64,000 nt of DNA from the NCBI GenBank assembly GCA_048941285.1, contig JBHLNS010000005.1, forward strand, positions 32,001 to 96,000. The letters run 5' to 3'. This document shows positions 34,510-53,909 of the stretch, in pieces. Each line of letters opens with the position of its first letter. The first letter of the stretch is position 1. The stretch comes from Promethearchaeota archaeon (GTDB taxonomy: Archaea > Asgardarchaeota > Lokiarchaeia > Sigyniarchaeales > SOKP01). The notes below the pieces were generated by a model. That model was not told the DNA's origin and did not search any database. It worked only from the letters and a program-made list of their open reading frames with translations. Both the position numbers and the translations under genes were made by a program.

Positions 34510-34739
34510 ATGACAGAATATAAAAGAGCAAAATGTCCCCAATGTGGCAATGAGAACCCACGCAAGCTTCATGAAGAACCGGATAAAAATAATGTGCTAT
34601 ACTACAGCATAGGTAAAGCTATTTCAGCATACCGCTGAGGCAGGGCACTCCGGTTTATGCAAAATTTAAATTTACATAAAATTTAGAGGCAACATCCATG
34701 AAATGCGGGGATTGCGGGAGTCTGTTCAAGAAGAACTAA
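34510..34739 (+). CDS. 56-aa zinc-ribbon protein, three exons (34510-34610, 34640-34663, 34694-34739)
   Basis: Spliced product MTEYKRAKCPQCGNENPRKLHEEPDKNNVLYYSMQGTPVYAKSMKCGDCGSLFKKN. The two CxxC halves join only after removing two BHB-bounded segments. Confidence 0.8.
34611..34639 (+). other. 29-nt BHB-type mRNA intron (intron 1 of zinc-ribbon gene)
   Basis: Central helix CAGC/GCTG, bulges ATA and AGG, intron stem GGTA/TACC, exon stems GTGCT/GGCAC and CCGGA/TCCGG. Confidence 0.8.
34664..34693 (+). other. 30-nt relaxed BHB-type mRNA intron (intron 2 of zinc-ribbon gene)
   Basis: Central TGCA/GGCA (3 of 4 pairs), bulges AAA and ACA, intron hairpin TTTAAATTT/AAATTTAGA; contains an in-frame TAA. 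Confidence 0.72.
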
Positions 34740-34826
34740 ATTGTAAAAGTTATAATTTAATTTTTTATTTTTATAATTTTTATGTTAGGTAGTTTCATTT
34801 ATTATCCAATTTCATTATTTCTTATA

Positions 34827-36053
34827 TTAGATTAAAGATAAAACTATTTTATTTTGAGCTTTCAACATATCTTCCATAATAAGTTCCATCGCATCTTTGA
34901 TATCCGGATTATTATCAGGAATACTACGTTTAGCATTCACACTTGCCATAAGGACTTCATTTAGTCCACGTAAAATCATATCTGGGCTATACCAAGGTCT
35001 TTGTGAAGCCCACCATTGTTGACATGAGTGAATTCCGCGATCTAACAAATTTCTTGCGTTATCAAAGATCCTTTTCTTTTCATTATCCATTCCATCTCGA
35101 TATTTTGATGCTAAATGAATTAAGGTGAGGGCATACATAAAAAATCTATGTTGTTCAATATGTATTTCATTTTGCGGGTTGAACCATAATGGGAAAGGCA
35201 CGTCAGTAGCAATGTCATATGGCATTGTTGACCAACTTGAATCACGTGGAATTTGAGTAAACCCTTTAGGAAATCTATCTACTATTTCTGATAAAGTAGA
35301 TATTTTTATATCATGTCGATGAGGGAGTGCTTGAAACAATGGGATTAAAAAGTTACTTATTGCATGTTTAACATGGTGTCCAAAAGTTTCACCATCCATA
35401 GCTAGTATAACATAATAGTCTTGAGATGTTTGCTTGTAATATAGACGTTTAATAAATGAATCTATATTATTAATTTTATCAAAAGCGCAGTCAATTGAAA
35501 TATAATCATCCCTAAAAAGTAGCTTAAGTCCATTAGGATGGACTGATATATAATTCGTAGGAAATTCTGCGGATGTGTTAGCAATTCCACTCATAATTAT
35601 CCAATCAAAACCAGCTTTTTTCACGATTTTGAATACTTCTTCAGATACAGCCATTTCAGGAGGAAAAAATCCACGAGGATTATAAAGCTTCCCAAAGAAA
35701 TGTCTATTAGTATCATTATTTAAAATTATTTGGCGCTTAACTTCGGGTTCTGGGATTAAAGGAAGCAGAGGATGAAACTTTCCAGACCCAGTAAATTCAA
35801 TTTGTCCTTTAGAGGCTAAAGTAATAATTGCTCCAATTAAATCGTCATATCCAAAATCATGTAATTGTTCGGTTAATGTTCCATTAATGTTTAAAGTAAT
35901 TTTCGCCAGAGGGTTATCCCTTAATGCATCGATTATTGGCTTATAGGATTCATTTACTATTTGTTTGATTACTATTGGGATTTGAACTGGAGGTTGATAA
36001 ATATGAAATAAAAAGGCAAAATAAACGACCATATAATAAATTAAAAAATCCAC
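34827..36053 (-). CDS. glycoside hydrolase family 57 protein
   Basis: HIYQP, HPLLPL, FFPPEM, DGETFGH, SSW motifs. Confidence 0.87.
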   Translation of the reverse strand: MDFLIYYMVVYFAFLFHIYQPPVQIPIVIKQIVNESYKPIIDALRDNPLAKITLNINGTLTEQLHDFGYDDLIGAIITLASKGQIEFTGSGKFHPLLPLIPEPEVKRQIILNNDTNRHFFGKLYNPRGFFPPEMAVSEEVFKIVKKAGFDWIIMSGIANTSAEFPTNYISVHPNGLKLLFRDDYISIDCAFDKINNIDSFIKRLYYKQTSQDYYVILAMDGETFGHHVKHAISNFLIPLFQALPHRHDIKISTLSEIVDRFPKGFTQIPRDSSWSTMPYDIATDVPFPLWFNPQNEIHIEQHRFFMYALTLIHLASKYRDGMDNEKKRIFDNARNLLDRGIHSCQQWWASQRPWYSPDMILRGLNEVLMASVNAKRSIPDNNPDIKDAMELIMEDMLKAQNKIVLSLI

Positions 36054-36095
36054 TTTTTTTAATCTTCATAATTCTTACGCGTAATGATCATAAAA

Positions 36096-36842
36096 TTATT
36101 TTAAAATTAGATCATAGATTTCTCTCATCCTTTCGACACTAATTTGCCCTTCTGCTGTCTTTTCTTCTAAGAAAGCATAAGTCAAATGAGAACCTACAAT
36201 AATACAATTAATTCTAGAGAAAATCCCTAATTCTCCCATACAGAATGAGATAATTCTTTTATTAGAACTAGAGAATTCTTTACATAGTCTCAAAGGAATT
36301 AGATTATCGTCAAAGGTTTGAGCCGTAAAAACAATTTTATAGATGCTGTCTCTAATTAAATTTAGATCTAGGTTTAACTCTTGAGTCAGCTTTTTATTGA
36401 AATTGTCTATATATTTTGTTGTTTCATCAAAGGATAATGTCCTTTCGAAATTGTGGTATGAAAAAATCAATTTAACTCCGTTTTGATAAGCCAAATTGAT
36501 TATTTCAACTAAAAATTTGTCTTCAGTATTCATTTCAAAGTCAACATAATTAGGTCTAGCAAAAATAAACATTTTATAAATTTTGAATCGATCGTCTTGT
36601 TTTAATTGAATTTGACCTCCTTCAGATATATTTCTGAGGGTAAAGATAACTGAAGCATGGGGGTGAATTATAATCAATAAATTTCTTATGAACTCCATTG
36701 AAATGCTTTCAATATTTTGAATATAATCAAATCTCAATTCAATTAGATTAACTTTTGATTTTATTGCTTTATCAATTACTGGTTTCAGTTCTTTAATACT
36801 TGAATATCTAATTGGAATTGGAATACATAGATTATATTTCAT
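36096..36842 (-). CDS. aroD: type I 3-dehydroquinate dehydratase
   Basis: IELRFD, FTLR..EGG, SYHNF, MGELGIFSR, TAEGQ. Confidence 0.88.
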   Translation of the reverse strand: MKYNLCIPIPIRYSSIKELKPVIDKAIKSKVNLIELRFDYIQNIESISMEFIRNLLIIIHPHASVIFTLRNISEGGQIQLKQDDRFKIYKMFIFARPNYVDFEMNTEDKFLVEIINLAYQNGVKLIFSYHNFERTLSFDETTKYIDNFNKKLTQELNLDLNLIRDSIYKIVFTAQTFDDNLIPLRLCKEFSSSNKRIISFCMGELGIFSRINCIIVGSHLTYAFLEEKTAEGQISVERMREIYDLILK

Positions 36843-36868
36843 GATTTAGAATAAATAAAAAAGAAATT

Positions 36869-37513
36869 TTATATTCCTATTATTTTTTTTATATCATCAT
36901 TTGTAAAACTCAATGTATCTTTAGCATCAACTTTTTTCAGTTTTCCTCTTTTTTTATAATATTTAATGATTGGTTTGGCATTTTTTTCATAAGCGTCTAA
37001 TCTACTTTTTAGTGTTTCTTCATTGTCATCACTTCTTTGTTCAAATTTAATCTCAGCACCACATTTATCACAAATACCTTCAACTCTAGTGGGGAGAGTA
37101 TATTTGTTATAGATTTCTCCACAGTTCTTACAGCTAAATCGACCTAAAATTCTTTTAAATATAATATCTCTAGACACATGTAATAATAGAAGCAAATCTA
37201 TTTCTGTTATATCTGATAATGCTTCGGCTTGATGTAATGTTCGAGGAAATCCATCAAGGATAAATCCATTTTTTTTAACATCTTCTTTATTCAATCTATC
37301 CCGTACCATTTCTATAGTTACGTCATCAGGGACTAATTCTCCCTTATCCATATAACTTTTTGCTTTCATTCCCAAAGTCGTTTCGCTTTTTAAATTTTCT
37401 CGAAATATATCTCCAGTACTAATATGTACAATTTCTGGTACTACTTTTTTTATCTGCCCTGAAAAAGTGCCTTTTCCTGCTCCTGGTGGGCCAAATAAGA
37501 TTAATTTTTTCAT
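36869..37513 (-). CDS. adk: adenylate kinase, bacterial-type with zinc lid
   Basis: GPPGAGKGT, STGDIFR, LDGFPRT, CxxC...CDKC lid, RSDD. Confidence 0.92.
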   Translation of the reverse strand: MKKLILFGPPGAGKGTFSGQIKKVVPEIVHISTGDIFRENLKSETTLGMKAKSYMDKGELVPDDVTIEMVRDRLNKEDVKKNGFILDGFPRTLHQAEALSDITEIDLLLLLHVSRDIIFKRILGRFSCKNCGEIYNKYTLPTRVEGICDKCGAEIKFEQRSDDNEETLKSRLDAYEKNAKPIIKYYKKRGKLKKVDAKDTLSFTNDDIKKIIGI

Positions 37514-37596
37514 GATTATTCAAAGTTTTTTTTATTTGTAGATAAGTTAATAGGACATTAGTTAAAATCATTTTGTCCCACAGTATTTTAATATTT

Positions 37597-38184
37597 CTAT
37601 CCTGTAAAAAGTGAATATTCTATTTTTTTAGTTAAATAGTCAACTATTCTCTTTTCTCTTAAGCCAAATACGTTGGAAAAATCGTTTTTTATAGAAGAAC
37701 CATAGTAAGAATTACCAAAAAATGTTTTTGATCTCTTTATTGATTCTAATAGTAGTTTTTTATTTCCTATGTGAAGATAAATTGATATATCATTAATAAT
37801 TAAAATCTTTGTTGGATTTTCAGTAAAAATTTTTAATACTTTAAAAGTTTTTTTAAAATTATTACAAGCAATTTCATAAAGTTCTTTTTTATTTCGTGCT
37901 TTAAGTCGAGGGGGAATAATTCCTCCTTCAAGAGATATATTATTACAAATAATAGAATTTTCGTAGAAATCTATTATCTTACCTCCAATTTTAACATTAT
38001 TAATTAGTTCTTTTACAGGGGCAAAATCTAGAATACTTATTTCCTTTGGGTTGAATTTTTTTGTTTCTATGAGAAATTGGACAAATTTAGCAGTATAATA
38101 TGTCTTTTTTGTATCAGTTTCTCCATATAAGAGAGTCTTACTACCAATAAAATTTTCAAAGCTAAAATTATTTTGAGATAACAT
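37597..38184 (-). CDS. hypothetical protein, degenerate P-loop NTPase fold
   Basis: LLYGETDTKKT Walker A-like, ILIIND Walker B-like. Confidence 0.6.
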   Translation of the reverse strand: MLSQNNFSFENFIGSKTLLYGETDTKKTYYTAKFVQFLIETKKFNPKEISILDFAPVKELINNVKIGGKIIDFYENSIICNNISLEGGIIPPRLKARNKKELYEIACNNFKKTFKVLKIFTENPTKILIINDISIYLHIGNKKLLLESIKRSKTFFGNSYYGSSIKNDFSNVFGLREKRIVDYLTKKIEYSLFTG

Positions 38185-38196
38185 AAGTTAATTAAA

Positions 38197-38766
38197 TTAT
38201 TTTTGAAAGAAATCTTTCCATGAAATCCCTTGATGTTTCAATAATTTTAACATTAGAAATCCTAAAATAGATCCAGGTATACTAGCAGCAGCGAATACTC
38301 CCCACCAGTAAAATAGAGTGACTGGTGAAATAAAATTGGCGATAGTTGCTGCGATAAATACAGTGCCTATGGGATCTGTTAAGGCGGCATATTCCACGTA
38401 TTGGGGCTTTTTTTTTCGCAAAATATAGGCTGTGATTCCAACGATAAAAGCACCTGAAATACCTCCATGAAAAGCATGGATTGAGCCAATTCCTAGAGGA
38501 TATCTAAAAATTGCGATACCTAGGGAAGTTGTGCAAGCAAATGATACCCCTATTAGAACTCCCGTCATTCCATTAATAAAATGGGCCATGGGAAAAATTT
38601 TTGGACCTCCTAAAATCTCAACAAATGCAAAGGGATTGAAAAGGGCTAAAACAATGCCAATACATATAAAAATAGCACTTGTGGCTACCCTTTTCGTAAG
38701 GTTAGCTTGAATTAAATATTTCTCTTTTTCTTCACTAAGTTTTAAGTCAGAATTTGATTCATTCAT
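38197..38766 (-). CDS. thiW: ECF transporter substrate component ThiW
   Basis: FPMAHFIN, GSIHAFxGG, xPIGT motifs. Confidence 0.75.
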   Translation of the reverse strand: MNESNSDLKLSEEKEKYLIQANLTKRVATSAIFICIGIVLALFNPFAFVEILGGPKIFPMAHFINGMTGVLIGVSFACTTSLGIAIFRYPLGIGSIHAFHGGISGAFIVGITAYILRKKKPQYVEYAALTDPIGTVFIAATIANFISPVTLFYWWGVFAAASIPGSILGFLMLKLLKHQGISWKDFFQK

Positions 38767-38870
38767 TTTTTTAGATTCTTTAAGATATCTATTTTAATAT
38801 TTAGGTTACAATAATCTGAAAGATAAATTTCTTTAAAGTTTAATCATATTTTAAATTAATTTATAAATCA

Positions 38871-39563
38871 TTGATAAGAAAGATAAAGACTATGAAGCTT
38901 GGAGATAATAGTATAGAACCAACAAAAATTTTATGTTTAGGGCGTAATTATTTGGAACATGCAAAGGAAATGAAAGCAATGATTCCAAAGGAGCCAGTAT
39001 TTTTTGTCAAAACGTTAAATACATTAGTAACTGATGGGAATCCGATAATATACCCGAAAATATTGTACGAGAATCAAGAGTACAATCAAGTAGATCATGA
39101 AGTAGAATTGGCATTTATAATATCTCAGACTTGTAAAAATATTCAAGCTGAGAACGCCTATAAATATATCGAAGGTTATACAATTTTTCTTGACATTACT
39201 GCTAGAAAAATGCAGATAAGTGATAGAAGTATTAATTTACCATGGTATAGAAGCAAAAATTTCGATACTTTTGGACCTATTGGCCCAAGAATAACTCCTT
39301 GTGCCAACATAGTAGATCCTCATAATTTAGAAATTCAATTAATGATCAATGGAAATATTCGTCAAAAATCAAATACAAAAAATATGATCTTCAAAATCCC
39401 TAAAATCTTAGCATTTCTATCTAAATTTATTACTTTGGTTCCCGGGGATATTATCGCAACAGGTACTCCAAGTGGAGTTGGACCTATCCAACCAGGAGAT
39501 ATTATTGAAGCTTCTATAGAAAAAATAGGAAAAATTATACATAGCGTTATTCTGGAAGAATAA
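38871..39563 (+). CDS. fumarylacetoacetate hydrolase family protein
   Basis: GRNYLEH, DHEVEL, DITAR, KNFDTF, GDIIATGTPSGVG. Confidence 0.92.
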   Translation: MIRKIKTMKLGDNSIEPTKILCLGRNYLEHAKEMKAMIPKEPVFFVKTLNTLVTDGNPIIYPKILYENQEYNQVDHEVELAFIISQTCKNIQAENAYKYIEGYTIFLDITARKMQISDRSINLPWYRSKNFDTFGPIGPRITPCANIVDPHNLEIQLMINGNIRQKSNTKNMIFKIPKILAFLSKFITLVPGDIIATGTPSGVGPIQPGDIIEASIEKIGKIIHSVILEE

Positions 39564-39741
39564 TTTGAAGCACATATTGTTTAAATTAGTTTAATTCTAA
39601 TTTGGCATTATTTTCTGTTGATAAAAATAAGAAAATAATACCAAAAAGTGCATTAATAGCTTCTGAATCCTATAAAATTATTGATGAAATCATAAAATTC
39701 GCGACTTAAAATTTATTAAGAAAAATCAATACTAAAACATA

Positions 39742-39927
39742 ATGAATATAGAAGTTAGTGAAGATACTAAGAAAAAAATCTGTGAATTGATCTCGATACC
39801 TGGGATTGAAATCGAGGAAATTGTTAAAAAAGTAAATTTAGATTATGATACCATAATAGAGATTTTATCTGAGGAGTATTTTAGATGTAATCTCGACCAT
39901 GGACGCAGACTTTGTTGTAGATTTTAA
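39742..39927 (+). CDS. small hypothetical protein (61 aa)
   Basis: Protein-like composition with an HTH-like segment; fills an intergenic gap. Confidence 0.5.
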   Translation: MNIEVSEDTKKKICELISIPGIEIEEIVKKVNLDYDTIIEILSEEYFRCNLDHGRRLCCRF

Positions 39928-40237
39928 AATCATCCTTTTTCTCCCACATGAACTTGGAGGAATGACATAATTAGATTATCAAATAGTTTTAAACATATAA
40001 GGATATGATATTTTGTTTTAGATATTACATATGAATGATTTTAATAAAATTTTTTAATATTGTTATATTCTAAATCACACTAAGTTTAAAATATATTTTT
40101 CTAAGAAACTTAGGACGCAAATTAAAGCGGTTTCAATATATAATAGATATTGAATAAGTAATTCACGATAATTACGCGTTCTTGATCTTAGGAATATTTT
40201 TTAAATTATAATGAGAAAAATAAAACGGTGAGTTTAT

Positions 40238-40768
40238 GTGAGTGAAAAAGGAAAAATAATTGTAAAGGCCCTTGTGACAGGTGGGAGAGTATAAATTATC
40301 AATCACATCGATTAAGCCCCGAATGCGTCAGGAGGACCTCCTATTGGCCCAGCTGTTGGCCCGACAGGGATAAATATTAAAGATGTAGTTGATGAGATCA
40401 ACAAGCAAACTACTGTCTTTAAGGGACTAACGGTACCAGTTAGAATTGAATGTGACGCAGAAACAAAACAGTTTGAAATTTTTATTGAAACACCATCTAC
40501 AGCATCACTTTTACTTAAAGAAGTTGGTGCCGAAAAAGGAAGTTCTGCTGCTTCAGAACAAAAAATTGGTAATTTAACGCTTGAACAAATTCAAAACGTT
40601 GTTGATGGTAAAAAAGAGAAATTTTTAGAAAAGACTTATAAAGCTGCTATAAAATCAGTGTTAGGAACAGCATTATCTGTAGGTTTAACAGTTGAAGGAG
40701 AAGATCCTAGAATCATCCAAAAAAGAATTGAAAATGGAGAATACGATGATAAAATAAGAGGTGAATAA
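40238..40768 (+). CDS. rpl11: 50S ribosomal protein L11 (uL11), two exons (40238-40287, 40324-40768)
   Basis: GTG start with GGTGA SD. Spliced protein [39 protein letters not shown]...LGTALSVG (164 aa). First gene of the L11-L1-P0-P1 operon; absent from the ORF track because of two in-frame TAA codons. Confidence 0.92.
40288..40323 (+). other. 36-nt BHB/BHL-type mRNA intron in rpl11
   Basis: Central helix TGGG/CCCG, bulges AGA and AAT, exon stem TGAC/GTCA, inner hairpin AATC/GATT; stops at 40292 and 40313. Confidence 0.85.
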
Positions 40769-40774
40769 TAGAAT

Positions 40775-41503
40775 TTGAAAGTAGATGATAAATTGTTAAA
40801 AAAATCACTAAACGCTGCTATAGATTTTTCTATAGTCAAAAAAAAGGGTTTTAAAGATAAAATAAGAAAATTTGATGAATCTATTGATCTTATTATAAAT
40901 ATTAAAGATGTTAATTTAAATGATCCAAAAAACCGTATCGATAAGGAAATTATTTTATCGAATGAAATCATTGCAAATGATAAACCGAATATATGTGTGA
41001 TTGCTTCTGACGAAATATTATTAGAAGCAAAAAAATTAGGGCTTGAAACAATCGATTCAGATGGTTTGGTAAAATTAAATAATGAGGAGAAAAAATATAA
41101 GAAAAAATTTGCGAAGAAATATGATTATTTTGTTGTAGAAGATAAAATGATGAGAGATGTGGCTCGATATTTAGCAAGATTTCTTGGACCTGTTGGTAAA
41201 ATGCCAAAACCTTTCCCTACAGGATATGGTATTATTTCTAGTACAGAAGATTTAAAAACTGCTTACGAACGATATAAGAAAATTATTAGGATTCAAATGA
41301 AAAAACAACCTATTATCTTCGTTAAAATTGGGAAAAAATCGATGAACAAGGACAAATTGTTTGAAAATATGAAGACTGTAGTAAATTTTATAGCAGAACA
41401 AATGCCTCATAGGTTCAATAATTTTAAATCAATGTATCTTAAATCTACAATGGGGAAACCTGTTAAAGTAACAGAAGAATTCCTGAAAACTATTGAGGTG
41501 TGA
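40775..41503 (+). CDS. rpl1: 50S ribosomal protein L1 (uL1)
   Basis: RKFDESIDL, LGPVGKMP, KSTMGKP. Confidence 0.95.
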   Translation: MKVDDKLLKKSLNAAIDFSIVKKKGFKDKIRKFDESIDLIINIKDVNLNDPKNRIDKEIILSNEIIANDKPNICVIASDEILLEAKKLGLETIDSDGLVKLNNEEKKYKKKFAKKYDYFVVEDKMMRDVARYLARFLGPVGKMPKPFPTGYGIISSTEDLKTAYERYKKIIRIQMKKQPIIFVKIGKKSMNKDKLFENMKTVVNFIAEQMPHRFNNFKSMYLKSTMGKPVKVTEEFLKTIEV

Positions 41504-41507
41504 AGTA

Positions 41508-42404
41508 ATGATCAAAAATAAACATATACCCAAATGGAAAATAAATGAAATTAATAAATTAGTTGATTTGTTTAGAAATTACAAAAATGTTGTTGTTATT
41601 GAAGTTGCTCATATTAATGATATGCAAATTCAGACTATGCGTAAAATATTAAGAGGAAAAGCCGTATTTAGAATGTCTAAAAAATCCCTTCAGGTCCGTG
41701 CTATAGATGAATATAAAAGTGAAACCAAAAAGAAAAATTTGGATCAATTAGCAGATCACATCCCCGGTCAATCAAGTCTAGTTTTTACTAATCTTGACAT
41801 TTTTGAATTAAAAAATATATTTTTAGAAAACGAGTGGATGGTTCCTGCCAAACCTAATGAAATCACTCCAGTAGATATCTGGGTTCCTGCTGGAGACACT
41901 GGATTACCAACGGGACAAGTTATTAGTGAACTAAATATGACACTACGTTTACCTACTAGAATTATGAATGATACTATATATATTCGAGAAGATACAAGAA
42001 CACACAAAGCGGGTGATGTAGTGGATGTAAAGCAAGCAGCGGTGTTGAAAAAATTAGGAATTACACCAATAGAATCTTTGATTAAAATCCATTTTGCCTG
42101 GAGTGATGGAGAAATTATCCCCGAGGAAATATTATACATGAATATAGATCAATTTAATCAAGATTTTGCAAAGGCTTATAGAGAATCACTTGCAATTTTA
42201 TTCGAAATGCCGTTCCTCGTTGAAGAAATGACAGAAGATTATGTTCAAAAAGCGGCTTCTGAAGCTAACATATTGAATTCTATCATTTTCGGGGAAGGAC
42301 TTAAGGTACCAAAAAAAGAAGAACCCCTTAAAGAAGAAGAAAAAGAACCTGAAGAAAAAGAAGAAGAATCAGAAAGTGTGGGGATTGGTGGATTATTTGG
42401 ATAA
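41508..42404 (+). CDS. rpl10: 50S ribosomal protein L10/P0 (uL10)
   Basis: IPKWK, MRKILRG, PAGDTGL, acidic tail ending GGLFG; ATG at 41508 preferred as start. Confidence 0.95.
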   Translation: MIKNKHIPKWKINEINKLVDLFRNYKNVVVIEVAHINDMQIQTMRKILRGKAVFRMSKKSLQVRAIDEYKSETKKKNLDQLADHIPGQSSLVFTNLDIFELKNIFLENEWMVPAKPNEITPVDIWVPAGDTGLPTGQVISELNMTLRLPTRIMNDTIYIREDTRTHKAGDVVDVKQAAVLKKLGITPIESLIKIHFAWSDGEIIPEEILYMNIDQFNQDFAKAYRESLAILFEMPFLVEEMTEDYVQKAASEANILNSIIFGEGLKVPKKEEPLKEEEKEPEEKEEESESVGIGGLFG

Positions 42405-45410: not shown

Positions 45411-45541
45411 CGCAACGGGAGGGATTTATTCTTATAAGAAGTATTTTCTTATACATTGAACCCCCGAGTGCATTCACACACCGGCTTTCTGGGATAGCAT
45501 CCACTCCAAGCCGGCGCCGTACCGGGCTAGGCAACCGTTGC
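45411..45541 (-). tRNA. tRNA-Ser(GGA) with two introns (45487-45503 at 37/38; 45426-45455 in the T-loop)
   Basis: Acceptor GCAACGG/CCGTTGC, G73, anticodon stem CCGGC/GCCGG, long variable arm, TTCAAAT T-loop restored after splicing; 84 nt mature. Confidence 0.88.
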
Positions 45542-46540: not shown

Positions 46541-46631
46541 TTTATATTAATATTTTAAAGTGTAATAATTCAATTAAGATTTGATGTATTTATGATTATT
46601 ACTTTTAGAAACAAATAATTATAGTAATATT

Positions 46632-46910
46632 CTATGATGTCTTTTGACTCCAAACACTCTCTTTTATTAAAGTTTGAAGACATTTCGCACAATATCTCCC
46701 ACTTTCCACTCTATTTGCCCTTCTTGATGTAATATGAGTTTTAGTCATTTTAGAAGGTCTTAATCTTGGAATAGACTGAAGAGGTTTTTTACATATTGCA
46801 CAGTTTGCTCTCTTAGGTTTTTTTCTCCAATAGTGGGTAACATTTCTGTTCCCTGGTGTGCTGACAGATTTTCTTGCTTGAGTTTTAGAACGTAAACCTG
46901 GTCGTGGAAT
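46632..46910 (-). CDS. rpl34e: ribosomal protein L34e (92 aa), ATT start
   Basis: (I)PRPGLRSKTQARKSVSTPGNRNVTHYWRKKPKRANCAICKKPL...GRYCAKC; missed by the ORF track. Confidence 0.92.
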   Translation of the reverse strand: MPRPGLRSKTQARKSVSTPGNRNVTHYWRKKPKRANCAICKKPLQSIPRLRPSKMTKTHITSRRANRVESGRYCAKCLQTLIKESVWSQKTS

Positions 46911-47000
46911 TATAATTACCTTTTATATTATTGTTTGAGAGAATATTATTAATTTATATTAATTTAAATTACTGAAAAAATATTAATTTTATTATTTTGT

Positions 47001-47621: not shown

Positions 47622-47686
47622 ATCGCGCTTTATTAAATAAAAATTTCAGAATTTTTATATAACGTTGGGATTGAGAGCTAATAAAT

Positions 47687-48589
47687 TTAACCAAATAATG
47701 TTGGGCGTAGGAAATAGAATAATATAGCGACTACTATACCAATAATAATATTAGGTATTAATACTCGGGTTGTTGAAGAATTACTTAATTCTCTAATAGC
47801 GAGAGTCATTAAAATAGGTACCCATGTGGCTAGGGTTATTGCATCGATTATATCTAAAGTAGCCCAAGTTGGTGCATCAAATATTTGATCTATATTAATT
47901 ACATCTACAGTTGGAAACCCAAAGACTACAATAAAGATCTTGATAGCATTTATTATTAGAAATGGAGTAAACGCACATAACATCATTCTGAATTTATATG
48001 CGCCTTCTAATTGTAGCATTGTACCGCCTTTATATATACTAAATGGACTTACATCAGTTTCCTTATATTTTTCTCTTTGTTCTTTAAGTCCTCCAAAACG
48101 TGTTTCCAACTTTTCTGTAAACCCTACAGCATAATTAGCTCCCTTACTAAATAACCATATTAAGAACCAAAACAAAAGTAATTGAAAACAAAATCCAAAT
48201 AGAAAAAATGTGCTAAAAAAACTTAAACCATATAAAAAGTGACCAAGTGAATATGGTGGAAGACCGGGAAAATTGAAATGTGAAAAGAATGCTAAGCCCA
48301 TTAATCCATATAATAAAGAACAAAATAGTAAAATTAACCATCCAGGAGCCTTACTTCTTTTATGATTAATATCGTGAAAAGCCTTTGGAGCATTTACAAA
48401 AAGATAAAAGATCTTCATATACCATCGATATGGGCTCGTCCATTCTGCCTCATATCTCCTAAAAAACCTAATATTTTCAATTCTTTCTATTTTTAATCTA
48501 AAACCACAGAAATTACAAGCATAACTATCAGCTGTATTCTCATTTCCACACCTAGGACACCGCTGAAATGCGGCAACTGTCTGAGACAT
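47687..48589 (-). CDS. zinc-ribbon + Yip1-like multi-pass membrane protein
   Basis: N-terminal CPRC/CNFC, then PxKAF followed by five TM helices. Confidence 0.6.
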   Translation of the reverse strand: MSQTVAAFQRCPRCGNENTADSYACNFCGFRLKIERIENIRFFRRYEAEWTSPYRWYMKIFYLFVNAPKAFHDINHKRSKAPGWLILLFCSLLYGLMGLAFFSHFNFPGLPPYSLGHFLYGLSFFSTFFLFGFCFQLLLFWFLIWLFSKGANYAVGFTEKLETRFGGLKEQREKYKETDVSPFSIYKGGTMLQLEGAYKFRMMLCAFTPFLIINAIKIFIVVFGFPTVDVINIDQIFDAPTWATLDIIDAITLATWVPILMTLAIRELSNSSTTRVLIPNIIIGIVVAILFYFLRPTLFG

Positions 48590-48713
48590 TATTATATGAA
48601 TATTTTAATAATTTTTATAATAAACATATAATAAAATAATCTTATAAAAATTTCTTCTAATCTTCACATGAATTCTTAATGAATTCTTCCTTTATATAAG
48701 AGATTTTTATTAA

Positions 48714-49757
48714 CTATATAAATTCAATTATAGAATGTGATTTCTTATTTTCGACTTGATAGTCTCTTTCTAAAAATAATTTAATCAATTCAAGATTAGT
48801 TTTAGTGTGATTTGTTATTTCAAGTACTTTTATTCTTGAAGGCTTTTTAATATAAGCCATGAAAGGAATTAATTGATCACTTAAATAATTATCAACGGGA
48901 ATTTGTTTTTTAATATAGGTTATAAGTTTATTAGCTGCTATAATTCCTAAATCTTCGGAAGTAATATTTCTCTCACCTAATATTGTTCCAGAAGAAATTA
49001 TAGCTCCTGTATCTGAATTTGCCCATAAACAAAGCCCTACTCCTGGACTTAGGGATTGTACATACTTATAAGTAATATTAGCTTCAATTCTTAAGCTTCT
49101 TTTTATTTGAAGAATTACCGTTTTTTTTATTCTTTCACATACTTTTTTATTAATTAGATGATTAGTACAGATAATTTCACCTTGAATTAAATCAATATCT
49201 CCTAATTCTGTTAAATTAAGTGATTTAAGCTTATTTTTAGGAGGATGTATAATACATTTTGTGACAGCCCCGCCTTTAGGATAAAAACCATGTTTTAAAA
49301 TATTTAAGTCAATATCAAAACCATGAGTTCTAAATATATTATATGTTACATGTTGAAGATAGTTAAGACCTGGGGCATATTTACCAAATGTCCCCCCACC
49401 ATTTACGAGAATTTCAATTTTTTCTACTCTATTAAAACCCAGACTTGCGATCTGAATGGGTTGGATTAATAACCCTATATTTCCTGCAGTTCCAACATCT
49501 ACTTCAATTCTAGTTTTTATTTTTTCTTTAGGGTATAATGTGATTTCTTTGGTCCCAACTTGACAATCAGATAATGAACTATCTGTCAGGATAGCCAAGG
49601 TCTCCAAGCCTTTTAGGTGTTGTAGACGTAAACCGGGCTTAGACCTATTTGCTCTTATATTCTTTATTCTAATTGGGCGTTTGCATAATATTGAAAATCC
49701 TGCTCCTATTCGAACTATAGCACCTCCACCTTCACCAAAAGCTCCATCTATTTCCAA
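48714..49757 (-). CDS. rtcA: RNA 3'-terminal phosphate cyclase
   Basis: IDGAFGEGGG, IRANR.KPGL..QHL, GFYPKGG, DQLI, TNHTKTN. Confidence 0.9.
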   Translation of the reverse strand: MEIDGAFGEGGGAIVRIGAGFSILCKRPIRIKNIRANRSKPGLRLQHLKGLETLAILTDSSLSDCQVGTKEITLYPKEKIKTRIEVDVGTAGNIGLLIQPIQIASLGFNRVEKIEILVNGGGTFGKYAPGLNYLQHVTYNIFRTHGFDIDLNILKHGFYPKGGAVTKCIIHPPKNKLKSLNLTELGDIDLIQGEIICTNHLINKKVCERIKKTVILQIKRSLRIEANITYKYVQSLSPGVGLCLWANSDTGAIISSGTILGERNITSEDLGIIAANKLITYIKKQIPVDNYLSDQLIPFMAYIKKPSRIKVLEITNHTKTNLELIKLFLERDYQVENKKSHSIIEFI

Positions 49758-49786
49758 GATTTTATCTGAGGTGATGAATTATCCCC

Positions 49787-50902
49787 TTATTTTATTGTTT
49801 TTATTCTATTTACTCCATTGAATTCTTCCATAAGGTTAATAACTTCATTAGGTACTAAATTTTTCCACTTTTTATCATTCCTTAGAATTAAATTTCTAAT
49901 ATTATTTCCATTGAATTTTTTTTTAAAAATGGTTATTTTCTTTTCAACTTTAATTCCTTTATTAGTAAATAATTCTCTTACCCAATCACTATTTGAATAG
50001 ACTGAATCAAGTTCCCCTACTTTTGAGAGTACGTGATCTACCCATTCATTTGCATTAAAAATATCAGGGATATTATAAATTTGATATACCTTTGAGGAGA
50101 TGCCTCTTTTTTCTAAAGCAGCGATTATAAATTTTTTTCTTTCATCACTCGTAAATGGATCATTTATAGTATGTGATAATTGAGAACTTCCTATAGCAAT
50201 TTTAATTTTTTTATAAGATTTTAAGATTTGTTTAATAACATATATATGACCATGATGAAGAGGTTGAAATCTTCCAATAAATAGAGCAGTCTCGTTTTCA
50301 CGTTCAATTGATTGTTCTATTTTTTTCTCGAAGATTGAATAAACGTTTGTATTTAAAAGTTTTTCCCAAATCTTTTTAGAATAATCTATATATTTTTCAT
50401 TTTCTAACAATTTTTCAAGTTCAGCTTTATTATAGAATCTACTATATCTAGGGTCTAATTCATTTAAATTTGGAATTAACGCAACTGAATATTCTACGCA
50501 TCCGATAAAAATATATGCTATTTCATTGCCTTCTGAATTTAAATCATAAAATCGGACTTTTTTAACTTTATTTCGAGGAATCCCAAATTCTTCTTCAAGT
50601 TCTCTCAAAGCATTATTCTTAATTTTATTTAGATTTAATTTTTTTTCCCAATTTATATGTCCTGAAGATGAATCTGTAAAATAATCTGGGAATGCTTTTT
50701 TATTTTTTCCACGTTTTTGGACTAAAAATAATGTAGAGCCATCTGGAGCTACTGATAGTATAAAAAGTCGCGTAATTAGATGACTAATATTTTTCTTGTG
50801 GGCTTCAATTCTTTCCATTGGAAAAATATATTTAGAAATCTGCCCCGATTGTAAATATTTTTTATTTTTTTTATCAATACAAGCTAAAATTTCTCTTTCC
50901 AT
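49787..50902 (-). CDS. Nudix domain + nicotinamide-nucleotide adenylyltransferase (NadM) fusion
   Basis: N-terminal ALRELEEEFG Nudix box; C-terminal GRFQPLHHGH and DPFTSDER. Confidence 0.85.
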   Translation of the reverse strand: MEREILACIDKKNKKYLQSGQISKYIFPMERIEAHKKNISHLITRLFILSVAPDGSTLFLVQKRGKNKKAFPDYFTDSSSGHINWEKKLNLNKIKNNALRELEEEFGIPRNKVKKVRFYDLNSEGNEIAYIFIGCVEYSVALIPNLNELDPRYSRFYNKAELEKLLENEKYIDYSKKIWEKLLNTNVYSIFEKKIEQSIERENETALFIGRFQPLHHGHIYVIKQILKSYKKIKIAIGSSQLSHTINDPFTSDERKKFIIAALEKRGISSKVYQIYNIPDIFNANEWVDHVLSKVGELDSVYSNSDWVRELFTNKGIKVEKKITIFKKKFNGNNIRNLILRNDKKWKNLVPNEVINLMEEFNGVNRIKTIK

Positions 50903-50918
50903 ATCTACGCACTTTTTT

Positions 50919-51761
50919 CTATAATTCTATAGTTATAGTATCCCCTATTTTAAATCCCAATTCCTTAGATGCATTTCCTTGATTGATTGATAACTCAAGA
51001 AAACCAGTTGAACCAACAAGAAACAAAATTGATCCAATAGGGAGACTTGAGAAGCTTAATGTAAAAAAAATTTTATATTTTTTATCGTTTATCTTGACTA
51101 AAATTTCTGAATCTTCGTTTATGATAATGTCACTATTCTTAATTATATTACCTACCATTTTTATATTAGTTGTTCCATTTCCAAAAGAATCTATATACTG
51201 AATTGAACATTGGACAACTTTTTTTTCAAAATCAATATCATAAATAATCTGGGATTCTTTTAAATTATTAAGGTTAAACTTAGGTCCAAAACTCCTTAAT
51301 GGAATACCAGATACTAAGTGTGCCGCAACTGGTGCCATAATATCCCTTCCATGAAATGTATTTGAAATAGGTATATTAAAGAATTCATTGTTTTGTATTT
51401 CAAAACATTCTTCTATATTAATAGTAGAAATTCCAGAAAAGATTCCATTATTAGGCCCAATAAAATAATGGTTTGATTTAGTTTTTAATAATAAAATTTC
51501 TCGAGAGCCTCCAACACCAGGATCTACTACGATTATAAAAGTTGTTCCTTTAGGAAAGTATATATATGTGGTTTCTAATATATATGATGCTTCAATTATA
51601 GAAAAAGGGGTAATGTTATGGGTGATATCTATTATTCTTATATTAGGGTTAATCTTTAAAATTACACCTTTCATACTAGCTACATAATGTTGACCTTTTA
51701 AGCCAAAATCAGTAAGTAAGCATATTAATTTTTGATTAAAATCCGCCATTTCAGAAAGCAA
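50919..51761 (-). CDS. SAM hydroxide adenosyltransferase/chlorinase family (DUF62)
   Basis: LLTDFG, VVDPGVG, GPNNG, TFHGRDIMAP, IDSFGN. Confidence 0.9.
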   Translation of the reverse strand: MLSEMADFNQKLICLLTDFGLKGQHYVASMKGVILKINPNIRIIDITHNITPFSIIEASYILETTYIYFPKGTTFIIVVDPGVGGSREILLLKTKSNHYFIGPNNGIFSGISTINIEECFEIQNNEFFNIPISNTFHGRDIMAPVAAHLVSGIPLRSFGPKFNLNNLKESQIIYDIDFEKKVVQCSIQYIDSFGNGTTNIKMVGNIIKNSDIIINEDSEILVKINDKKYKIFFTLSFSSLPIGSILFLVGSTGFLELSINQGNASKELGFKIGDTITIEL

Positions 51762-51809
51762 ACAAGTAATTTAATGGATAATATTTATGAAAAATAAAGC
51801 AAGAGATGT

Positions 51810-52715
51810 TTATTTATTTTTTCTATATTTTTCATCGATTTTATAAAAATCTTCCAAAGCTTTTGATTTTAGCCTATATTCCTCTTCTTTATCAAATTGA
51901 ACTAATTTTTTAGAAATCTCACTTGCTCTTCTATATGAGGTGTAAGCTGTATGGAAATCCTCATTTCTAAGTGCATTTCTAGCTTCTTGTACAATTTTAT
52001 CTCTCTCTCTTGATAGTTCGGGAATTTGCTCAGAGAAATTTCCCTTTTCTTTAAGAGAAGCCGCTATATCCATTATATATAGACCTTCTGCGATTTCTGC
52101 TGCTTTAGTATAAAATTTTGCTGCTTTCTCATAGTCTAAAGATTTCATTGCGCTTTCAGCGGTATTATAATATTCTGATATTTTATCATGTTCTCCGTTT
52201 TCGACTTTTTCTAAAAGATCCTGAGCAATTTTTCTTTCTTTTTTTCCGCCGCTAAGCATAAATTTAGTAATGTTAATAATACTACTTTTCAATGCTTCAG
52301 GCTGAAGTATATCAATTAAAGGCTCTAGATGTTCTAAATATATATCCTTTAATAATACTTCAAATTCTTCCTTCGTTTTCTTAAGAATGTTAAGGCTTGG
52401 AATCTCAAAGGCTTCTGCTGCTTCTTTTAGGGATGAGCGAAATTTCTCTGGTTTGTCATTCTCATTTAATAACATACCTATTATTATCCCCGATGCGTTT
52501 CGAATAAGCTTTCCTGTAAATTTATGAATATATGAAAAAATTTGAAGATTTTTAACTTTTAATAAATTATACTCATTTCTGGAGTGGTCAAGATTTAATC
52601 TTAGAAATAAATCATTTGTAATATCAAAAACAGCTGTACCCTCTTTAAAATAATATCCCAAAATCTTGTAATCTGAATCTGTAGGAAGTAATATAACAAA
52701 ACAGCCTTCTGGCAT
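51810..52715 (-). CDS. hypothetical protein: alpha/beta N-domain plus TPR/MIT-like helical repeats
   Basis: Two helical repeats (A...DYEKAAKFYTKAAEIA; A...EDFHTAYTSYRRASEIS). Confidence 0.65.
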   Translation of the reverse strand: MPEGCFVILLPTDSDYKILGYYFKEGTAVFDITNDLFLRLNLDHSRNEYNLLKVKNLQIFSYIHKFTGKLIRNASGIIIGMLLNENDKPEKFRSSLKEAAEAFEIPSLNILKKTKEEFEVLLKDIYLEHLEPLIDILQPEALKSSIINITKFMLSGGKKERKIAQDLLEKVENGEHDKISEYYNTAESAMKSLDYEKAAKFYTKAAEIAEGLYIMDIAASLKEKGNFSEQIPELSRERDKIVQEARNALRNEDFHTAYTSYRRASEISKKLVQFDKEEEYRLKSKALEDFYKIDEKYRKNK

Positions 52716-52788
52716 TTAAGTTTTTACACCTTTTAGATAAATATTTTTAAGCTAAATTAAGACTAAATTCAATTAGACTAAAAATTTT

Positions 52789-53208
52789 TTATTGACTAGC
52801 ACTAATGATTCTATTTGTCTCTTCTCTTATACTTTGGATTATATTCAGTAATTGTGCAAAATAGAGATTGTCAGTTACCGCCTTAGATGCTTTTTTTATT
52901 ATGTCAATTGCTTTCTTTTCTTCTTCTGTTATCGCTTCAATAGATTTCTTATCCCATAGTTCTTTTAGTTTTTGATTAAAATCATCAGACAAGTCTGTAA
53001 GACTTTTTGTTGACTGCACCCTGAATTGCTTTAAAACTTCTACTATTAATCTAATATTTTCTGTCATAGCTACTGTTTGTTCAGAAAAATTTTGACTCAT
53101 TTGATTTATTGCACCCCTCATTTGATTAATCTGAGCTATCGTTCCATCTAAAGAAGCCATAATTTGATTTATTTTTTGAATCATCTCATCCAATAACTTC
53201 TCTGCCAT
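52789..53208 (-). CDS. coiled-coil hypothetical protein
   Basis: Heptad pattern; its start overlaps the stop of the upstream gene. Confidence 0.7.
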   Translation of the reverse strand: MAEKLLDEMIQKINQIMASLDGTIAQINQMRGAINQMSQNFSEQTVAMTENIRLIVEVLKQFRVQSTKSLTDLSDDFNQKLKELWDKKSIEAITEEEKKAIDIIKKASKAVTDNLYFAQLLNIIQSIREETNRIISASQ

Positions 53209-53621
53209 TATTCTAATACCTCTTCTTCTTTAATAGATTTTTTAAGAATTTTAACAGAATCAATTGCTTCTGATAACAATAAATTTACAGTATCCTGATT
53301 GAGAACTCCTTCTGAAAGCTTAGAGAAATCTTCAAGTTTCTTTATAAGATTTTTAAGCGCATCTAAACCTAAACCTTCTTGAATTACTTTTAATTCGGTT
53401 GTTGTTCCTGCTCCAATTTCCTTAACAACATCGATATGTTTAGTTTGAGTGACATTTATTTCATTTGAGAATTCCTCTAATTTTGCAGTTAAATTTGAAA
53501 TCTTATTTTCAATATTTTGATTAAGGCTATCGATAGAAGTCTTTAGCTCTTGTATAGCTTGACCTAGTTGTGCTATTCTTTTATAAATATTCTGAAGGAG
53601 ATCTGTTAACATTTCAGCCAT
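53208..53621 (-). CDS. coiled-coil hypothetical protein (probable distant paralog of 52789..53208)
   Basis: MAExLxDxxQxI N-terminus, similar length, heptad pattern. Confidence 0.7.
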   Translation of the reverse strand: MAEMLTDLLQNIYKRIAQLGQAIQELKTSIDSLNQNIENKISNLTAKLEEFSNEINVTQTKHIDVVKEIGAGTTTELKVIQEGLGLDALKNLIKKLEDFSKLSEGVLNQDTVNLLLSEAIDSVKILKKSIKEEEVLE

Positions 53622-53763
53622 TGCATATCAACTTATTCAATAATTTTTTATTAATTAACTAAAGTCTCTTTTTATTATTTCAATTATAAATTAAAAAGAT
53701 AAAAATTTTTATCTTTTTTCTGATTTAATTAGTTTATAATAATTAATCATTTTCAATTTACTT

Positions 53764-53909
53764 GGGCCATTAGCTCAGATTGGTTAACAAGTTTTTATAT
53801 GCTTGGTCAACAAGCGCAGGTCTTATAAATGACTATCGGACATACAGTAAATAGAACTGTCCGATAAAGTAAAAACCTGAGATCCGGGGTTCAAATCCCC
53901 GATGGCCCA
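53764..53909 (+). tRNA. tRNA-Ile(UAU) with two introns (53787-53811 in the D-loop; 53829-53874 at 38/39)
   Basis: Acceptor GGGCCAT/ATGGCCC, A73, anticodon stem CAGGT/ACCTG with loop CT-TAT-AA, T-arm CGGGG-TTCAAAT-CCCCG; 75 nt mature, CCA not encoded. Confidence 0.85.

What the first reader, a model, noticed from the sequence alone, without database searches (positions are those of the whole stretch)
34510..53909. Candidate system: tRNA-type (EndA/RtcB) splicing extended to mRNAs, with high intron density
Seen: seven short (17-46 nt) hairpin introns within about 20 kb, three in mRNAs and four in tRNAs. All have a 4-nt central helix and two 3-nt bulges, and all restore the gene when cut by the same rule. 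Established: EndA cleaves BHB motifs independent of the tRNA body, and the classic archaeal mRNA case is the single cbf5 intron of some crenarchaea. Inference: this lineage has a broad-specificity endonuclease and an active intron-gain process affecting protein genes. Many of its apparently missing or pseudogenised genes may really be spliced, which bears on intron-containing mRNAs in the archaeal relatives of eukaryotes.
Basis: partly seen in the sequence, partly recalled or inferred. Interest (0 to 1): 0.9.

Follow-up and report, generated by a model that had tools for sequence, protein, structure and literature searches.

The report
Short tRNA-type introns inside protein genes

Summary
The window (a 30% GC Promethearchaeota MAG) has seven short inserts. 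Four lie in two tRNA genes: Ser-GGA (17 and 30 nt) and Ile-UAU (25 and 46 nt). Three lie in mRNAs: ribosomal protein L11 (36 nt) and a small zinc-ribbon gene (29 and 30 nt).

All seven have a 4-bp helix and two 3-nt bulges at one fixed cut register. The chance rate for that helix is 0.025 per register.

Cutting by that rule gives the exact uninterrupted sequence found in relatives for L11 and the first zinc-ribbon intron. It also makes both tRNAs detectable.

The phenomenon extends beyond the window:
- The same genome has a 30-nt insert in its only RNA polymerase A' gene.
- A relative has nine such inserts in 2.65 Mb.
- L11 has three intron sites among 54 relatives.
- Exon and intron bases covary.

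The genome encodes an alpha/beta EndA with the broad-specificity loop, and RtcB.

No RNA data could be obtained, so splicing itself is inferred. mRNA introns are few per genome: five were found here. Only the crenarchaeal cbf5 intron and one Haloferax 5' UTR intron turned up in eight literature searches. I rate this a new variant of a known kind.

The parts
34510..34610 (+). Zinc-ribbon gene, exon 1 (33 codons plus 2 nt)
   Evidence: Translation. Orthologues found in 61 of 61 family genomes.
34611..34639 (+). Zinc-ribbon intron 1. 29 nt, frameshifting. Central helix CAGC/GCUG, bulges AUA and AGG, inner hairpin of 4+3 bp.
   Evidence: The unique best cut restores the ..YYS-M-QGTPVY.. of the uninterrupted orthologues, 21/21. 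Present in 8 of 30 loci, all of genus g1; absent in 22. Structure paired in 100% of cells in 8 sequences, with G-C to A-U changes.
34640..34659 (+). Zinc-ribbon exon 2 (ends at 34659 or 34663, depending on the register of intron 2)
34660..34693 (+). Zinc-ribbon intron 2. 30 nt, in frame, with a TAA. Either 34660-34689 (helix UUUA/UAGA, 4/4) or 34664-34693 (3/4 helix plus a 9-bp hairpin).
   Evidence: Lacking in the 7 other intron-1-bearing same-genus loci, which read VYA(R/K)N-MKC without it. 11 equivalent cuts; structure.
34694..34739 (+). Zinc-ribbon exon 3, with the second CxxC and the stop (starts at 34690 in the other register)
40238..40287 (+). Ribosomal protein L11, exon 1 (GTG start)
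40288..40323 (+). L11 intron. 36 nt, in frame, with two TAA. Central helix UGGG/CCCG, bulges AGA and AAU.
   Evidence: The unique best cut gives 35/35 identity to a typed intronless-type reference peptide, which carries the GG-S-ASGG motif of the relatives. The insert is absent in most of the 54 relatives and present at the same site in L010, L013, L014, L019, L026, L028 and L030. 97% of cells paired; U-A, A-U and U-G at one helix pair. L11 is single copy.
40324..40768 (+). L11 exon 2
   Evidence: Pfam Ribosomal_L11_N matched only from profile position 10 onward, plus Ribosomal_L11.
45411..45541 (-). tRNA-Ser(GGA) gene with two introns
   Evidence: ARAGORN finds it only after both inserts are removed in silico.
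45487..45503 (-). tRNA-Ser intron at 37/38. 17 nt, canonical hBHBh' (helix UUGG/CCAG, outer helix 8 bp).
45426..45455 (-). tRNA-Ser T-loop intron. 30 nt (helix GUUC/GAAU, 8-bp inner hairpin after one mismatch).
53764..53909 (+). tRNA-Ile(UAU) gene with two introns
   Evidence: ARAGORN finds it only after both inserts are removed in silico.
53787..53811 (+). tRNA-Ile D-loop intron. 25 nt (helix UGGU/GUCA, inner helix 5 bp).
53829..53874 (+). tRNA-Ile anticodon-loop intron. 46 nt (helix UUAU/GUAA; 9-bp inner hairpin behind an internal loop).

Best explanation
These are archaeal bulge-helix-bulge (BHB) introns, and they sit in protein-coding genes as well as in tRNA genes.

Proposed mechanism, in order:
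1. In the primary transcript, four exon bases just upstream of the insert pair with four bases near the 3' end of the insert. This leaves a 3-nt bulge on each strand. The rest of the insert folds into a hairpin.
2. The alpha/beta splicing endonuclease EndA cuts after the second base of each bulge.
3. RtcB joins the exons and probably circularises the intron.
4. Only the spliced mRNA encodes L11, the zinc-ribbon protein or RNA polymerase A', because the inserts carry stop codons or shift the frame.

Shown here: the inserts, their structure and covariation, exact in-silico restoration of the genes, their patchy distribution among relatives, and the presence of the enzymes.

Inferred: that cleavage and ligation happen in the cell, and that EndA and RtcB do it.
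For: 1. Exact restoration. Where comparison with an uninterrupted sequence fixes a single best cut, that cut has all four helix pairs in 6 of 7 cases:
- L11 and zinc-ribbon intron 1.
- RNA polymerase A', and G025 inserts RC6:165897, RC6:188697 and RC9:269071.
- The miss is RC6:862902.
The per-register background is 0.025. By my own arithmetic the binomial tail is about 2e-9.

2. Same rule for tRNAs. Removing the four tRNA inserts by the same rule turns two undetectable loci into tRNA-Ser(GGA) and tRNA-Ile(UAU).

3. Covariation.
- RNA polymerase A' intron in six genomes: 97% of cells paired, 6 pairs with changes on both sides, score 0.685 against 0.25 in shuffles (0 of 500 reach it), slid controls at most 51.5%.
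- In that intron the wobble base of the exon Gly codon (G, A or U) pairs with the intron base opposite (C or U, U, and G respectively).
- L11: 97.1% of cells paired, with U-A, A-U and U-G at one helix pair.
- Zinc-ribbon intron 1: 100% of cells paired.

4. Essential single-copy genes. The interrupted L11 and RNA polymerase A' genes are the only copies in a 94% complete genome.

5. Independent assemblies. The same sites are occupied in MAGs of different isolates.
- L11 has three sites, in at least 25 of 54 relatives' loci.
- In the RNA polymerase A' stretch, 9 of 58 family genomes with a match have a resolved insert and one more (G045) is cut by contig ends. 14 of the 100 family genomes with a match in the class-level sample are interrupted, and 0 of the 16 genomes with a match from other families. 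There are three sites.

6. Machinery. Two EndA paralogues of 198 and 201 aa are present.
- One aligns with the A. pernix catalytic subunit, including the loop K44 and R46 and the Y/H/K positions as I read them.
- The other lacks the His.
- RtcB is intact, 567.7 bits.

7. A relative sampled at 2.65 Mb has nine further inserts, eight of them exactly 30 nt.
Against: - No RNA-level observation. No listed run holds the stretch, and nothing of these genes was laid.
- The three mRNA introns in the window lack the outer exon-exon helix (h = 0), so they are relaxed motifs.
- Some inserts show only 3 of 4 helix pairs at the register that fits the protein: the thioredoxin insert RC6:1128441, G108 and G127, and G041 and G134. 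For RC6:862902 the best protein-fitting cut has 1 of 4 pairs. Its 4/4 cuts change one residue.
- The register of zinc-ribbon intron 2 is not determined.
- A genome-wide scan for the motif joined to ORF merging gave equal counts for real and decoy pairing. The motif by itself therefore has no predictive power in this AT-rich genome.
- The intron sequences have no other copies in the genome.
Confidence: 0.85

Rival explanations
1. Programmed translational bypassing. The ribosome hops over the hairpin insert, as in phage T4 gene 60 or the mitochondrial 'byp' elements of some yeasts (both recalled, not looked up here). The RNA would never be cut.
For: The inserts are short hairpins inside ORFs. 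Many carry a stop codon near their 5' end, and any length could be tolerated.
Against: - Inserts of the same architecture and cut register sit in two tRNA genes, which are not translated.
- No matching take-off and landing triplets: no 3-nt repeat at the ends in 7 of 8 registers tested. The best cut is unique in most cases.
- The conserved, covarying feature is a helix between exon and intron with 3-nt bulges. That is the EndA substrate and is not needed for hopping.
Confidence: 0.04
2. The interrupted genes are pseudogenes, population variants or assembly artefacts, and the cell uses no product from them.
For: Standard gene callers would flag them as broken. MAGs can carry errors. Contigs C19 and C97 of this assembly duplicate one region.
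Against: - L11 and RNA polymerase A' are single copy in a 94% complete genome.
- The same inserts recur at the same codon in MAGs of different isolates, with diverged sequence and compensatory changes.
- The flanking coding sequence stays highly conserved: 85% identity over 991 aligned residues for RNA polymerase A'.
Confidence: 0.03
3. EndA cleaves these sites, but the purpose is regulation or mRNA inactivation. Splicing would be partial or conditional, so the inserts act as switches that gate how much functional mRNA is made.
For: - In-frame stops make unspliced mRNA yield truncated product.
- Many sites lie near the 5' end of genes (L11 codon 17; RNA polymerase A' about codon 85).
- In Haloferax a BHB intron in the 5' UTR of HVO_1309 affects expression (PMC7714728, abstract and passages).
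Against: - Nothing here speaks to efficiency or conditions.
- The patchy presence among close relatives argues against a conserved regulatory role at any one site.
Confidence: 0.08

Closest known systems
cbf5 pre-mRNA intron of Crenarchaeota (Desulfurococcales, Sulfolobales)
   Same: A BHB-type intron inside a protein-coding gene, thought to be removed by the tRNA splicing endonuclease in organisms with a hetero-oligomeric EndA. It shows lineage-specific loss (PMC2738675, abstract; PMC7714728, passages).
   Different: That case is one gene at one site in Crenarchaeota. Here at least five genes are interrupted in this genome and nine more in one relative. Several sites occur per gene: three in L11, and three in a 91-aa stretch of RNA polymerase A'. 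There is a dominant 30-nt size class, and the host is a Loki-type Asgard lineage. The cbf5 intron was shown by RT-PCR; these were not.
Multiple non-canonical tRNA introns of Asgard archaea and Thermoproteales
   Same: The four tRNA introns of the window are of this kind, at D-loop, T-loop and 37/38 positions, with two per gene. Standard finders miss them. High tRNA intron load in Asgard genomes is in print (PMC11291895, passages; bioRxiv 10.64898/2026.10.13.758758, abstract and passages).
   Different: In what I read, those papers treat tRNA genes only. The preprint has 0 occurrences of 'mRNA' in its main text. Its supplements could not be seen.
BHB intron in the 5' UTR of Haloferax volcanii HVO_1309
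   Same: An mRNA substrate of EndA, confirmed there by circRNA-seq and in vitro cleavage (PMC7714728, abstract and passages).
   Different: It lies in a UTR and does not interrupt the reading frame. It is a single case, in a euryarchaeon with a homodimeric enzyme.
Unconventional HAC1/XBP1 mRNA splicing in eukaryotes (IRE1 plus RtcB or Trl1)
   Same: Protein-only, non-spliceosomal excision of a short intron from an mRNA at paired stem-loops, with tRNA-ligase joining. This is recalled; only a reference title in PMC5829648 was seen.
   Different: A different nuclease (IRE1), a different motif, one regulated substrate, and cytoplasmic stress signalling.
Alpha/beta EndA with the crenarchaeal-specific loop (A. 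pernix, P. aerophilum)
   Same: The best solved match of the catalytic paralogue is A. pernix 3p1z_B (E 9e-35), with K44 and R46 of the loop conserved. Asgard EndA was already predicted to be of this type (PMC5829648, passages).
   Different: Neither the assembly state nor the substrate range of this enzyme has been tested.

Membership tests
Archaeal BHB intron (EndA substrate) | 4-bp central helix flanked by two 3-nt bulges on opposite strands | tested here: met
   7 of 7 window inserts at one fixed register. Background is 0.025 per register.
Archaeal BHB intron (EndA substrate) | Outer (exon-exon) and inner (intron) helices, i.e. the strict hBHBh' form | tested here: not met
   Outer helix h = 0 for all three mRNA introns and for the tRNA-Ile anticodon intron. 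It is met only by the tRNA-Ser introns (h = 8 and 4). Inner helix is 0-5 bp at the junction (9 in the alternative zn2 register), with longer hairpins behind a mismatch in some. The mRNA introns are therefore relaxed HBh'-like forms.
Archaeal BHB intron (EndA substrate) | Cutting within the bulges and joining yields the functional RNA | tested here: met
   In silico only. L11 35/35 and zinc-ribbon 21/21 identity to typed intronless-type reference peptides. RNA polymerase A' 24/24 to the uninterrupted G025 orthologue. Both tRNAs recognised after removal.
Archaeal BHB intron (EndA substrate) | Excision in vivo, 2',3'-cyclic phosphate ends, circular intron | not testable with these tools
   No RNA holder was listed for the stretch.
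Archaeal BHB intron (EndA substrate) | Host encodes EndA and an RtcB-type ligase | tested here: met
   PF01974 twice (104.3 and 69.1 bits). PF01139 once (567.7 bits, no stops).
Alpha/beta (heterotetrameric) EndA with broad specificity | Two distinct subunits, of which only one is catalytic | tested here: met
   ORFs of 198 and 201 aa. The first aligns over its length with catalytic chain 3p1z_B, with Y, H and K kept as I read the alignment. In the second the His position is not His. Assembly itself was not tested.
Alpha/beta (heterotetrameric) EndA with broad specificity | Crenarchaeal-specific (L1) loop with the RNA-binding Lys | tested here: met
   The query's KPR aligns with K44-P-R46 of A. 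pernix EndA. The role of K44 is from PMC3241643 (abstract and passages).
cbf5-type archaeal pre-mRNA intron | BHB intron interrupting a protein reading frame | tested here: met
cbf5-type archaeal pre-mRNA intron | Located in cbf5 of Crenarchaeota | tested here: not met
   The host is Promethearchaeota. The genes are L11, a zinc-ribbon protein, RNA polymerase A' and a GH57-like gene. The cbf5 gene of this genome was not examined.
Translational bypass elements | Matching take-off and landing codons; found only in translated RNA | tested here: not met
   No 3-nt repeat at the ends in 7 of 8 registers. The same architecture occurs in tRNA genes.
Self-splicing group I or II introns | Ribozyme core of hundreds of nucleotides | tested here: not met
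   The inserts are 17-46 nt. No Rfam intron family matched in the window or region.

The most novel reading that the evidence does not exclude
The roughly 30-nt hairpin inserts are a class of mobile mini-introns that spread among protein and tRNA genes of Loki-type Asgard archaea.

The proposed route is that a copy settles wherever its 3' four bases can pair with exon bases just upstream. This could happen by reversal of the EndA/RtcB reaction followed by reverse transcription, or by recombination. The insert is then tolerated because the host's broad-specificity EndA removes it. This would be an ongoing, protein-catalysed invasion of coding sequence by introns in the archaeal sister group of eukaryotes.

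Hints:
- One relative (G053) has a second zinc-ribbon intron 24/31 identical to its first. It sits behind the same exon hexamer, 20 nt downstream.
- The second intron of the window's zinc-ribbon gene is lacking in the 7 other intron-1-bearing congeners.
- Eight of nine inserts in G025 are exactly 30 nt.
- Sites cluster in G/C-rich codons of conserved motifs.

Against: there is no repeated intron sequence family within this genome. Patchiness could be loss only.
Probability: 0.3. Interest if true: 0.95.

Novelty: new variant of a known kind. Interest (0 to 1): 0.82.

Why it matters
- Scale. Protein-only (EndA/RtcB) splicing of mRNAs was documented, in what I could find, for one crenarchaeal gene and one haloarchaeal UTR. 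Here it appears to serve several essential genes: the largest RNA polymerase subunit and ribosomal protein L11 in this genome, and further genes (adenylate kinase, thioredoxin and an eS26-like gene by my reading of sequence motifs) in relatives. It does so at many sites, with turnover between close relatives, in a family of Asgard archaea.
- Intron biology. This gives a living system in which to study how introns enter and persist in coding sequence without a spliceosome, in the lineage closest to eukaryotes.
- Annotation. Such genes are called truncated or pseudogenes, and universal markers are mis-scored. Most tRNA genes are missed too: ARAGORN found 13 without introns, and 30 when it allowed anticodon-loop introns.
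- Testability. The predicted junctions are concrete enough for RT-PCR, circRNA-seq, proteomics or an in vitro EndA assay.

Tried and rejected
RNA evidence:
- The look-up of sequencing runs: no RNA holder listed. Three metatranscriptome runs of the same study held next to none of the words.
- Read laying on those three runs: only three short low-identity pieces on a low-complexity stretch at 42331-42368. Nothing was laid on the genes. This says nothing about expression.

Genome-wide de novo scans:
- BHB motif plus ORF merging gave 1,294,686 real and 1,276,464 decoy candidates. There was no enrichment at any stringency, and no peak at 30 nt. The method is uninformative here, because adjacent genes and AT-rich hairpins swamp it. 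The first version timed out.

Census candidates dropped as not introns:
- G000 C19 and C97 (upstream region of a gene, on two duplicate contigs).
- G000 C10:47043 (15 nt, no motif).
- G000 C30:82974 (42 nt, 3/4 pairs).
- G000 C54:36604-36658 (two genes, with a Shine-Dalgarno-like run and GTG between them).
- G025 RC6:457474 (9 nt), RC7:17897 (27 nt), RC9:266496 (15 nt) and RC9:269043 (the antisense image of 269071).
- Two split matches with 158 and 192 extra bases.
- The GH57-like insert passed only the looser first filter and rests on a 35% identical orthologue. I count it as probable.

Other negatives:
- Intron sequence families: blastn-short of nine introns against the genome found only self hits and low-complexity matches.
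- Literature: eight full-text searches found no report of BHB introns in Asgard protein genes. Supplements were closed and may hold such data.
- Not examined: cbf5 of this genome, rRNA introns, and intron sites on a species tree.

Full report
SETTING

The window is G000:C52:32001-96000 of a 3.55-Mb, 101-contig assembly, 94% complete. It has about 30% G+C. The relatives found with its L11 protein are titled Promethearchaeota or other Asgard MAGs.

The region holds these genes:
- an L11-L1-L10 ribosomal gene cluster
- SecY
- adenylate and cytidylate kinases
- L14e and L34e
- RNA 3'-phosphate cyclase

THE OBSERVATION

ARAGORN and Rfam find no tRNA between 33.5 and 55 kb. Reading the G+C-rich islands shows two tRNA genes, each broken twice.

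After in-silico removal of 45487-45503 and 45426-45455 (minus strand), ARAGORN calls tRNA-Ser(GGA). After removal of 53787-53811 and 53829-53874 it calls tRNA-Ile(UAU). It finds nothing in the unspliced sequences or in the one single-removal construct tried per gene.

The L11 gene (40238-40768) is interrupted after codon 17 by 36 nt carrying two TAA codons. A 56-codon zinc-ribbon gene starting at 34510 is interrupted by 29 nt, which shifts the frame. It is interrupted again by 30 nt with a TAA.

One rule fits all seven inserts. Four exon bases pair with four intron bases, each followed by a 3-nt bulge, and the cut falls after the second bulge base. All seven show 4 of 4 pairs under this rule. 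Arbitrary registers in the window do so in 2777 of 109,464 trials.

The loose motif is nevertheless common. The mRNA introns lack the outer helix.

COMPARATIVE TEST OF THE WINDOW'S mRNA INTRONS

L11:
- Most of the 54 relatives' loci read ..TGG-S-ASGGPPIGP.. without interruption.
- The single cut that best matches a reference peptide typed after this uninterrupted form (35/35) is the BHB cut.
- Seven loci (L010, L013, L014, L019, L026, L028, and partial L030) carry an insert at the same codon, of 36, 37 or 28 nt.
- In seven aligned sequences the structure is paired in 97.1% of cells. The outermost helix pair occurs as U-A, A-U and U-G.

Zinc-ribbon gene:
- Orthologues exist in 61 of 61 family genomes.
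- Of 30 loci read, 22 are uninterrupted (..YYSMQGTPVY..). Eight, all of the window's genus, carry the 29-nt insert.
- The unique best cut (21/21) is again the BHB cut.
- All cells pair in eight sequences, with G-C to A-U and U-G to U-A changes.
- The second, 30-nt insert is lacking in the 7 other intron-1-bearing loci. Its register is ambiguous between 34660-34689 and 34664-34693.

BEYOND THE WINDOW

I fetched 2.65 Mb (57%) of one relative of another genus, G025. I then compared open frames of at least 70 codons with tblastn in both directions.

About 1670 frames had strong matches each way. This genome showed two clean inserts with stops: L11, and a 30-nt insert in RNA polymerase A' between HFGH and IELARP (C1:98368-98397). 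A probable 30-nt insert in a GH57-like gene came from a looser pass.

G025 showed eight in-frame inserts, all of 30 nt, and one 29-nt frameshifting insert in what I read as an eS26-like gene. Gene names given here for G025 inserts are my reading of sequence motifs, not Pfam results.

Nearly all follow one plan: four exon bases, two bulge bases, cut, one base, a hairpin of about 23 nt, four pairing bases, two bulge bases, cut. The 30-nt T-loop intron of tRNA-Ser has the same plan.

Counting only cases where the comparison fixes one best cut, 6 of 7 have 4/4 helix pairs.

L11 has three intron sites among the 54 relatives (after GG, after GGPPI, after GIN). Lengths are 28 to 37 nt, and at least 25 loci are affected. 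One locus has a 30-nt insert in the P-loop of adenylate kinase.

RNA POLYMERASE A'

In the 91-aa stretch searched, 58 of 61 family genomes matched. Nine had a resolved insert and one more (G045) was cut by contig ends.

In a class-level sample, 14 of the 100 family genomes with a match were interrupted. None of the 16 genomes with a match from five other families was.

Three sites occur:
- after ..DEDG (30 nt)
- after HFGH (30, 31, 40 or 65 nt)
- one codon later (50 or 85 nt)

Within the window's genus, G096 and G124 carry introns visibly homologous to this genome's, with compensatory stem changes. Most congeners have none.

In six genomes with the 30-nt form the structure is paired in 97% of cells, with 6 pairs changed on both sides. 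No shuffle of 500 reaches the score. The third base of the exon Gly codon covaries with the intron base opposite.

L11 and RNA polymerase A' are single copy here.

MACHINERY

Two EndA paralogues are present, of 198 and 201 aa.
- The first aligns end to end with the catalytic chain of A. pernix EndA. This includes K44 and R46 of the loop that gives broad specificity (PMC3241643, abstract and passages).
- The second has lost the catalytic His as I read the alignment.

This fits the alpha/beta type predicted for Asgard archaea (PMC5829648, passages). RtcB is intact. An RNA 3'-phosphate cyclase gene lies in the window.

RIVALS

- Ribosomal bypassing does not explain the same inserts in tRNA genes. 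It also does not explain the missing take-off and landing repeats, or the conserved exon-intron helix.
- Pseudogenes or artefacts do not fit single-copy essential genes. They also do not fit recurrence in independent MAGs with compensatory change.
- A regulatory reading (partial splicing) cannot be judged without RNA.

WHAT IS NOT SHOWN

No RNA data were available (see Tried and rejected). Several inserts have only 3 of 4 helix pairs. One (RC6:862902) fits poorly at its best protein register.

The motif has no genome-wide predictive power. mRNA introns are few: five were found in this genome. The three in this window are therefore a local cluster and do not reflect a genome-wide density.

The tRNA load is high. 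ARAGORN finds 13 tRNAs without introns, and 30 when it allows anticodon-loop introns.

COMPARISON WITH WHAT IS KNOWN

BHB introns in mRNA are in print for crenarchaeal cbf5 (PMC2738675, abstract). One is also reported for a Haloferax 5' UTR. That 2020 paper states that cbf5 was the only other case (PMC7714728, passages).

Heavy tRNA intron loads in Asgard archaea are in print (PMC11291895, passages; bioRxiv 10.64898/2026.10.13.758758, abstract and passages).

Eight searches found nothing on BHB introns in Asgard protein genes. Supplements were closed.

I therefore file the tRNA introns as known. The mRNA introns I file as a new variant of a known kind: the same presumed mechanism, but many genes and sites, a 30-nt class, turnover among relatives, and a new lineage.

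Noticed in passing
window 56257-56349 (-): A tRNA-Sec gene (ARAGORN; Rfam RF01852, 59.4 bits). It is the only tRNA that the standard tools see in the whole window.
   Followed up: no
window 46644-46910 (-): The ribosomal protein L34e gene (Pfam PF01199) has no ATG, GTG or TTG at its 5' end. Where the G025 orthologue reads I-F-M-P-R-P, the window reads I-I-I-P-R-P. The start is therefore ATA or ATT, or lies elsewhere.
   Followed up: partly
window 48714-49757 (-): An RNA 3'-terminal phosphate cyclase (RtcA) gene lies between the interrupted genes. It makes the cyclic-phosphate ends that RtcB ligates. A link to the introns is only a thought.
   Followed up: no
window 53764-53909 (+): The spliced tRNA carries anticodon UAU (Ile). 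From memory, archaea mostly decode AUA with a modified CAU tRNA, so a UAU tRNA-Ile is uncommon.
   Followed up: no
L063 (G053), zinc-ribbon gene: This relative has a different second intron of 31 nt. It is 24/31 identical to its own first intron and sits 20 nt downstream behind the same exon hexamer. It looks like an intron duplication.
   Followed up: partly
G025 contigs C6, C9, C10; L018:615: Insert sites fall in the most conserved, G/C-rich motifs: WCGPC of a thioredoxin, NPEE|GELRPQ of a chelatase-like ATPase, the GPPGAG|KGT P-loop of adenylate kinase, and HFGH of RNA polymerase. My filter required conserved flanks, which biases this.
   Followed up: partly
G025, 2.65 Mb sampled: Eight of nine accepted inserts are exactly 30 nt. 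The RNA polymerase site also shows 31, 40, 50, 65 and 85 nt in other genomes.
   Followed up: partly
G000 contigs C19:5564 and C97:4030: The same 377-residue alignment and identical flanking DNA occur on two contigs. The assembly therefore holds a duplicated region.
   Followed up: no
G000 C54:36604-36658: A gene that is one long frame in G025 (784-residue query) is two adjacent frames here. A purine-rich run and GTG lie between them. This is a split or fusion difference, not an intron.
   Followed up: partly
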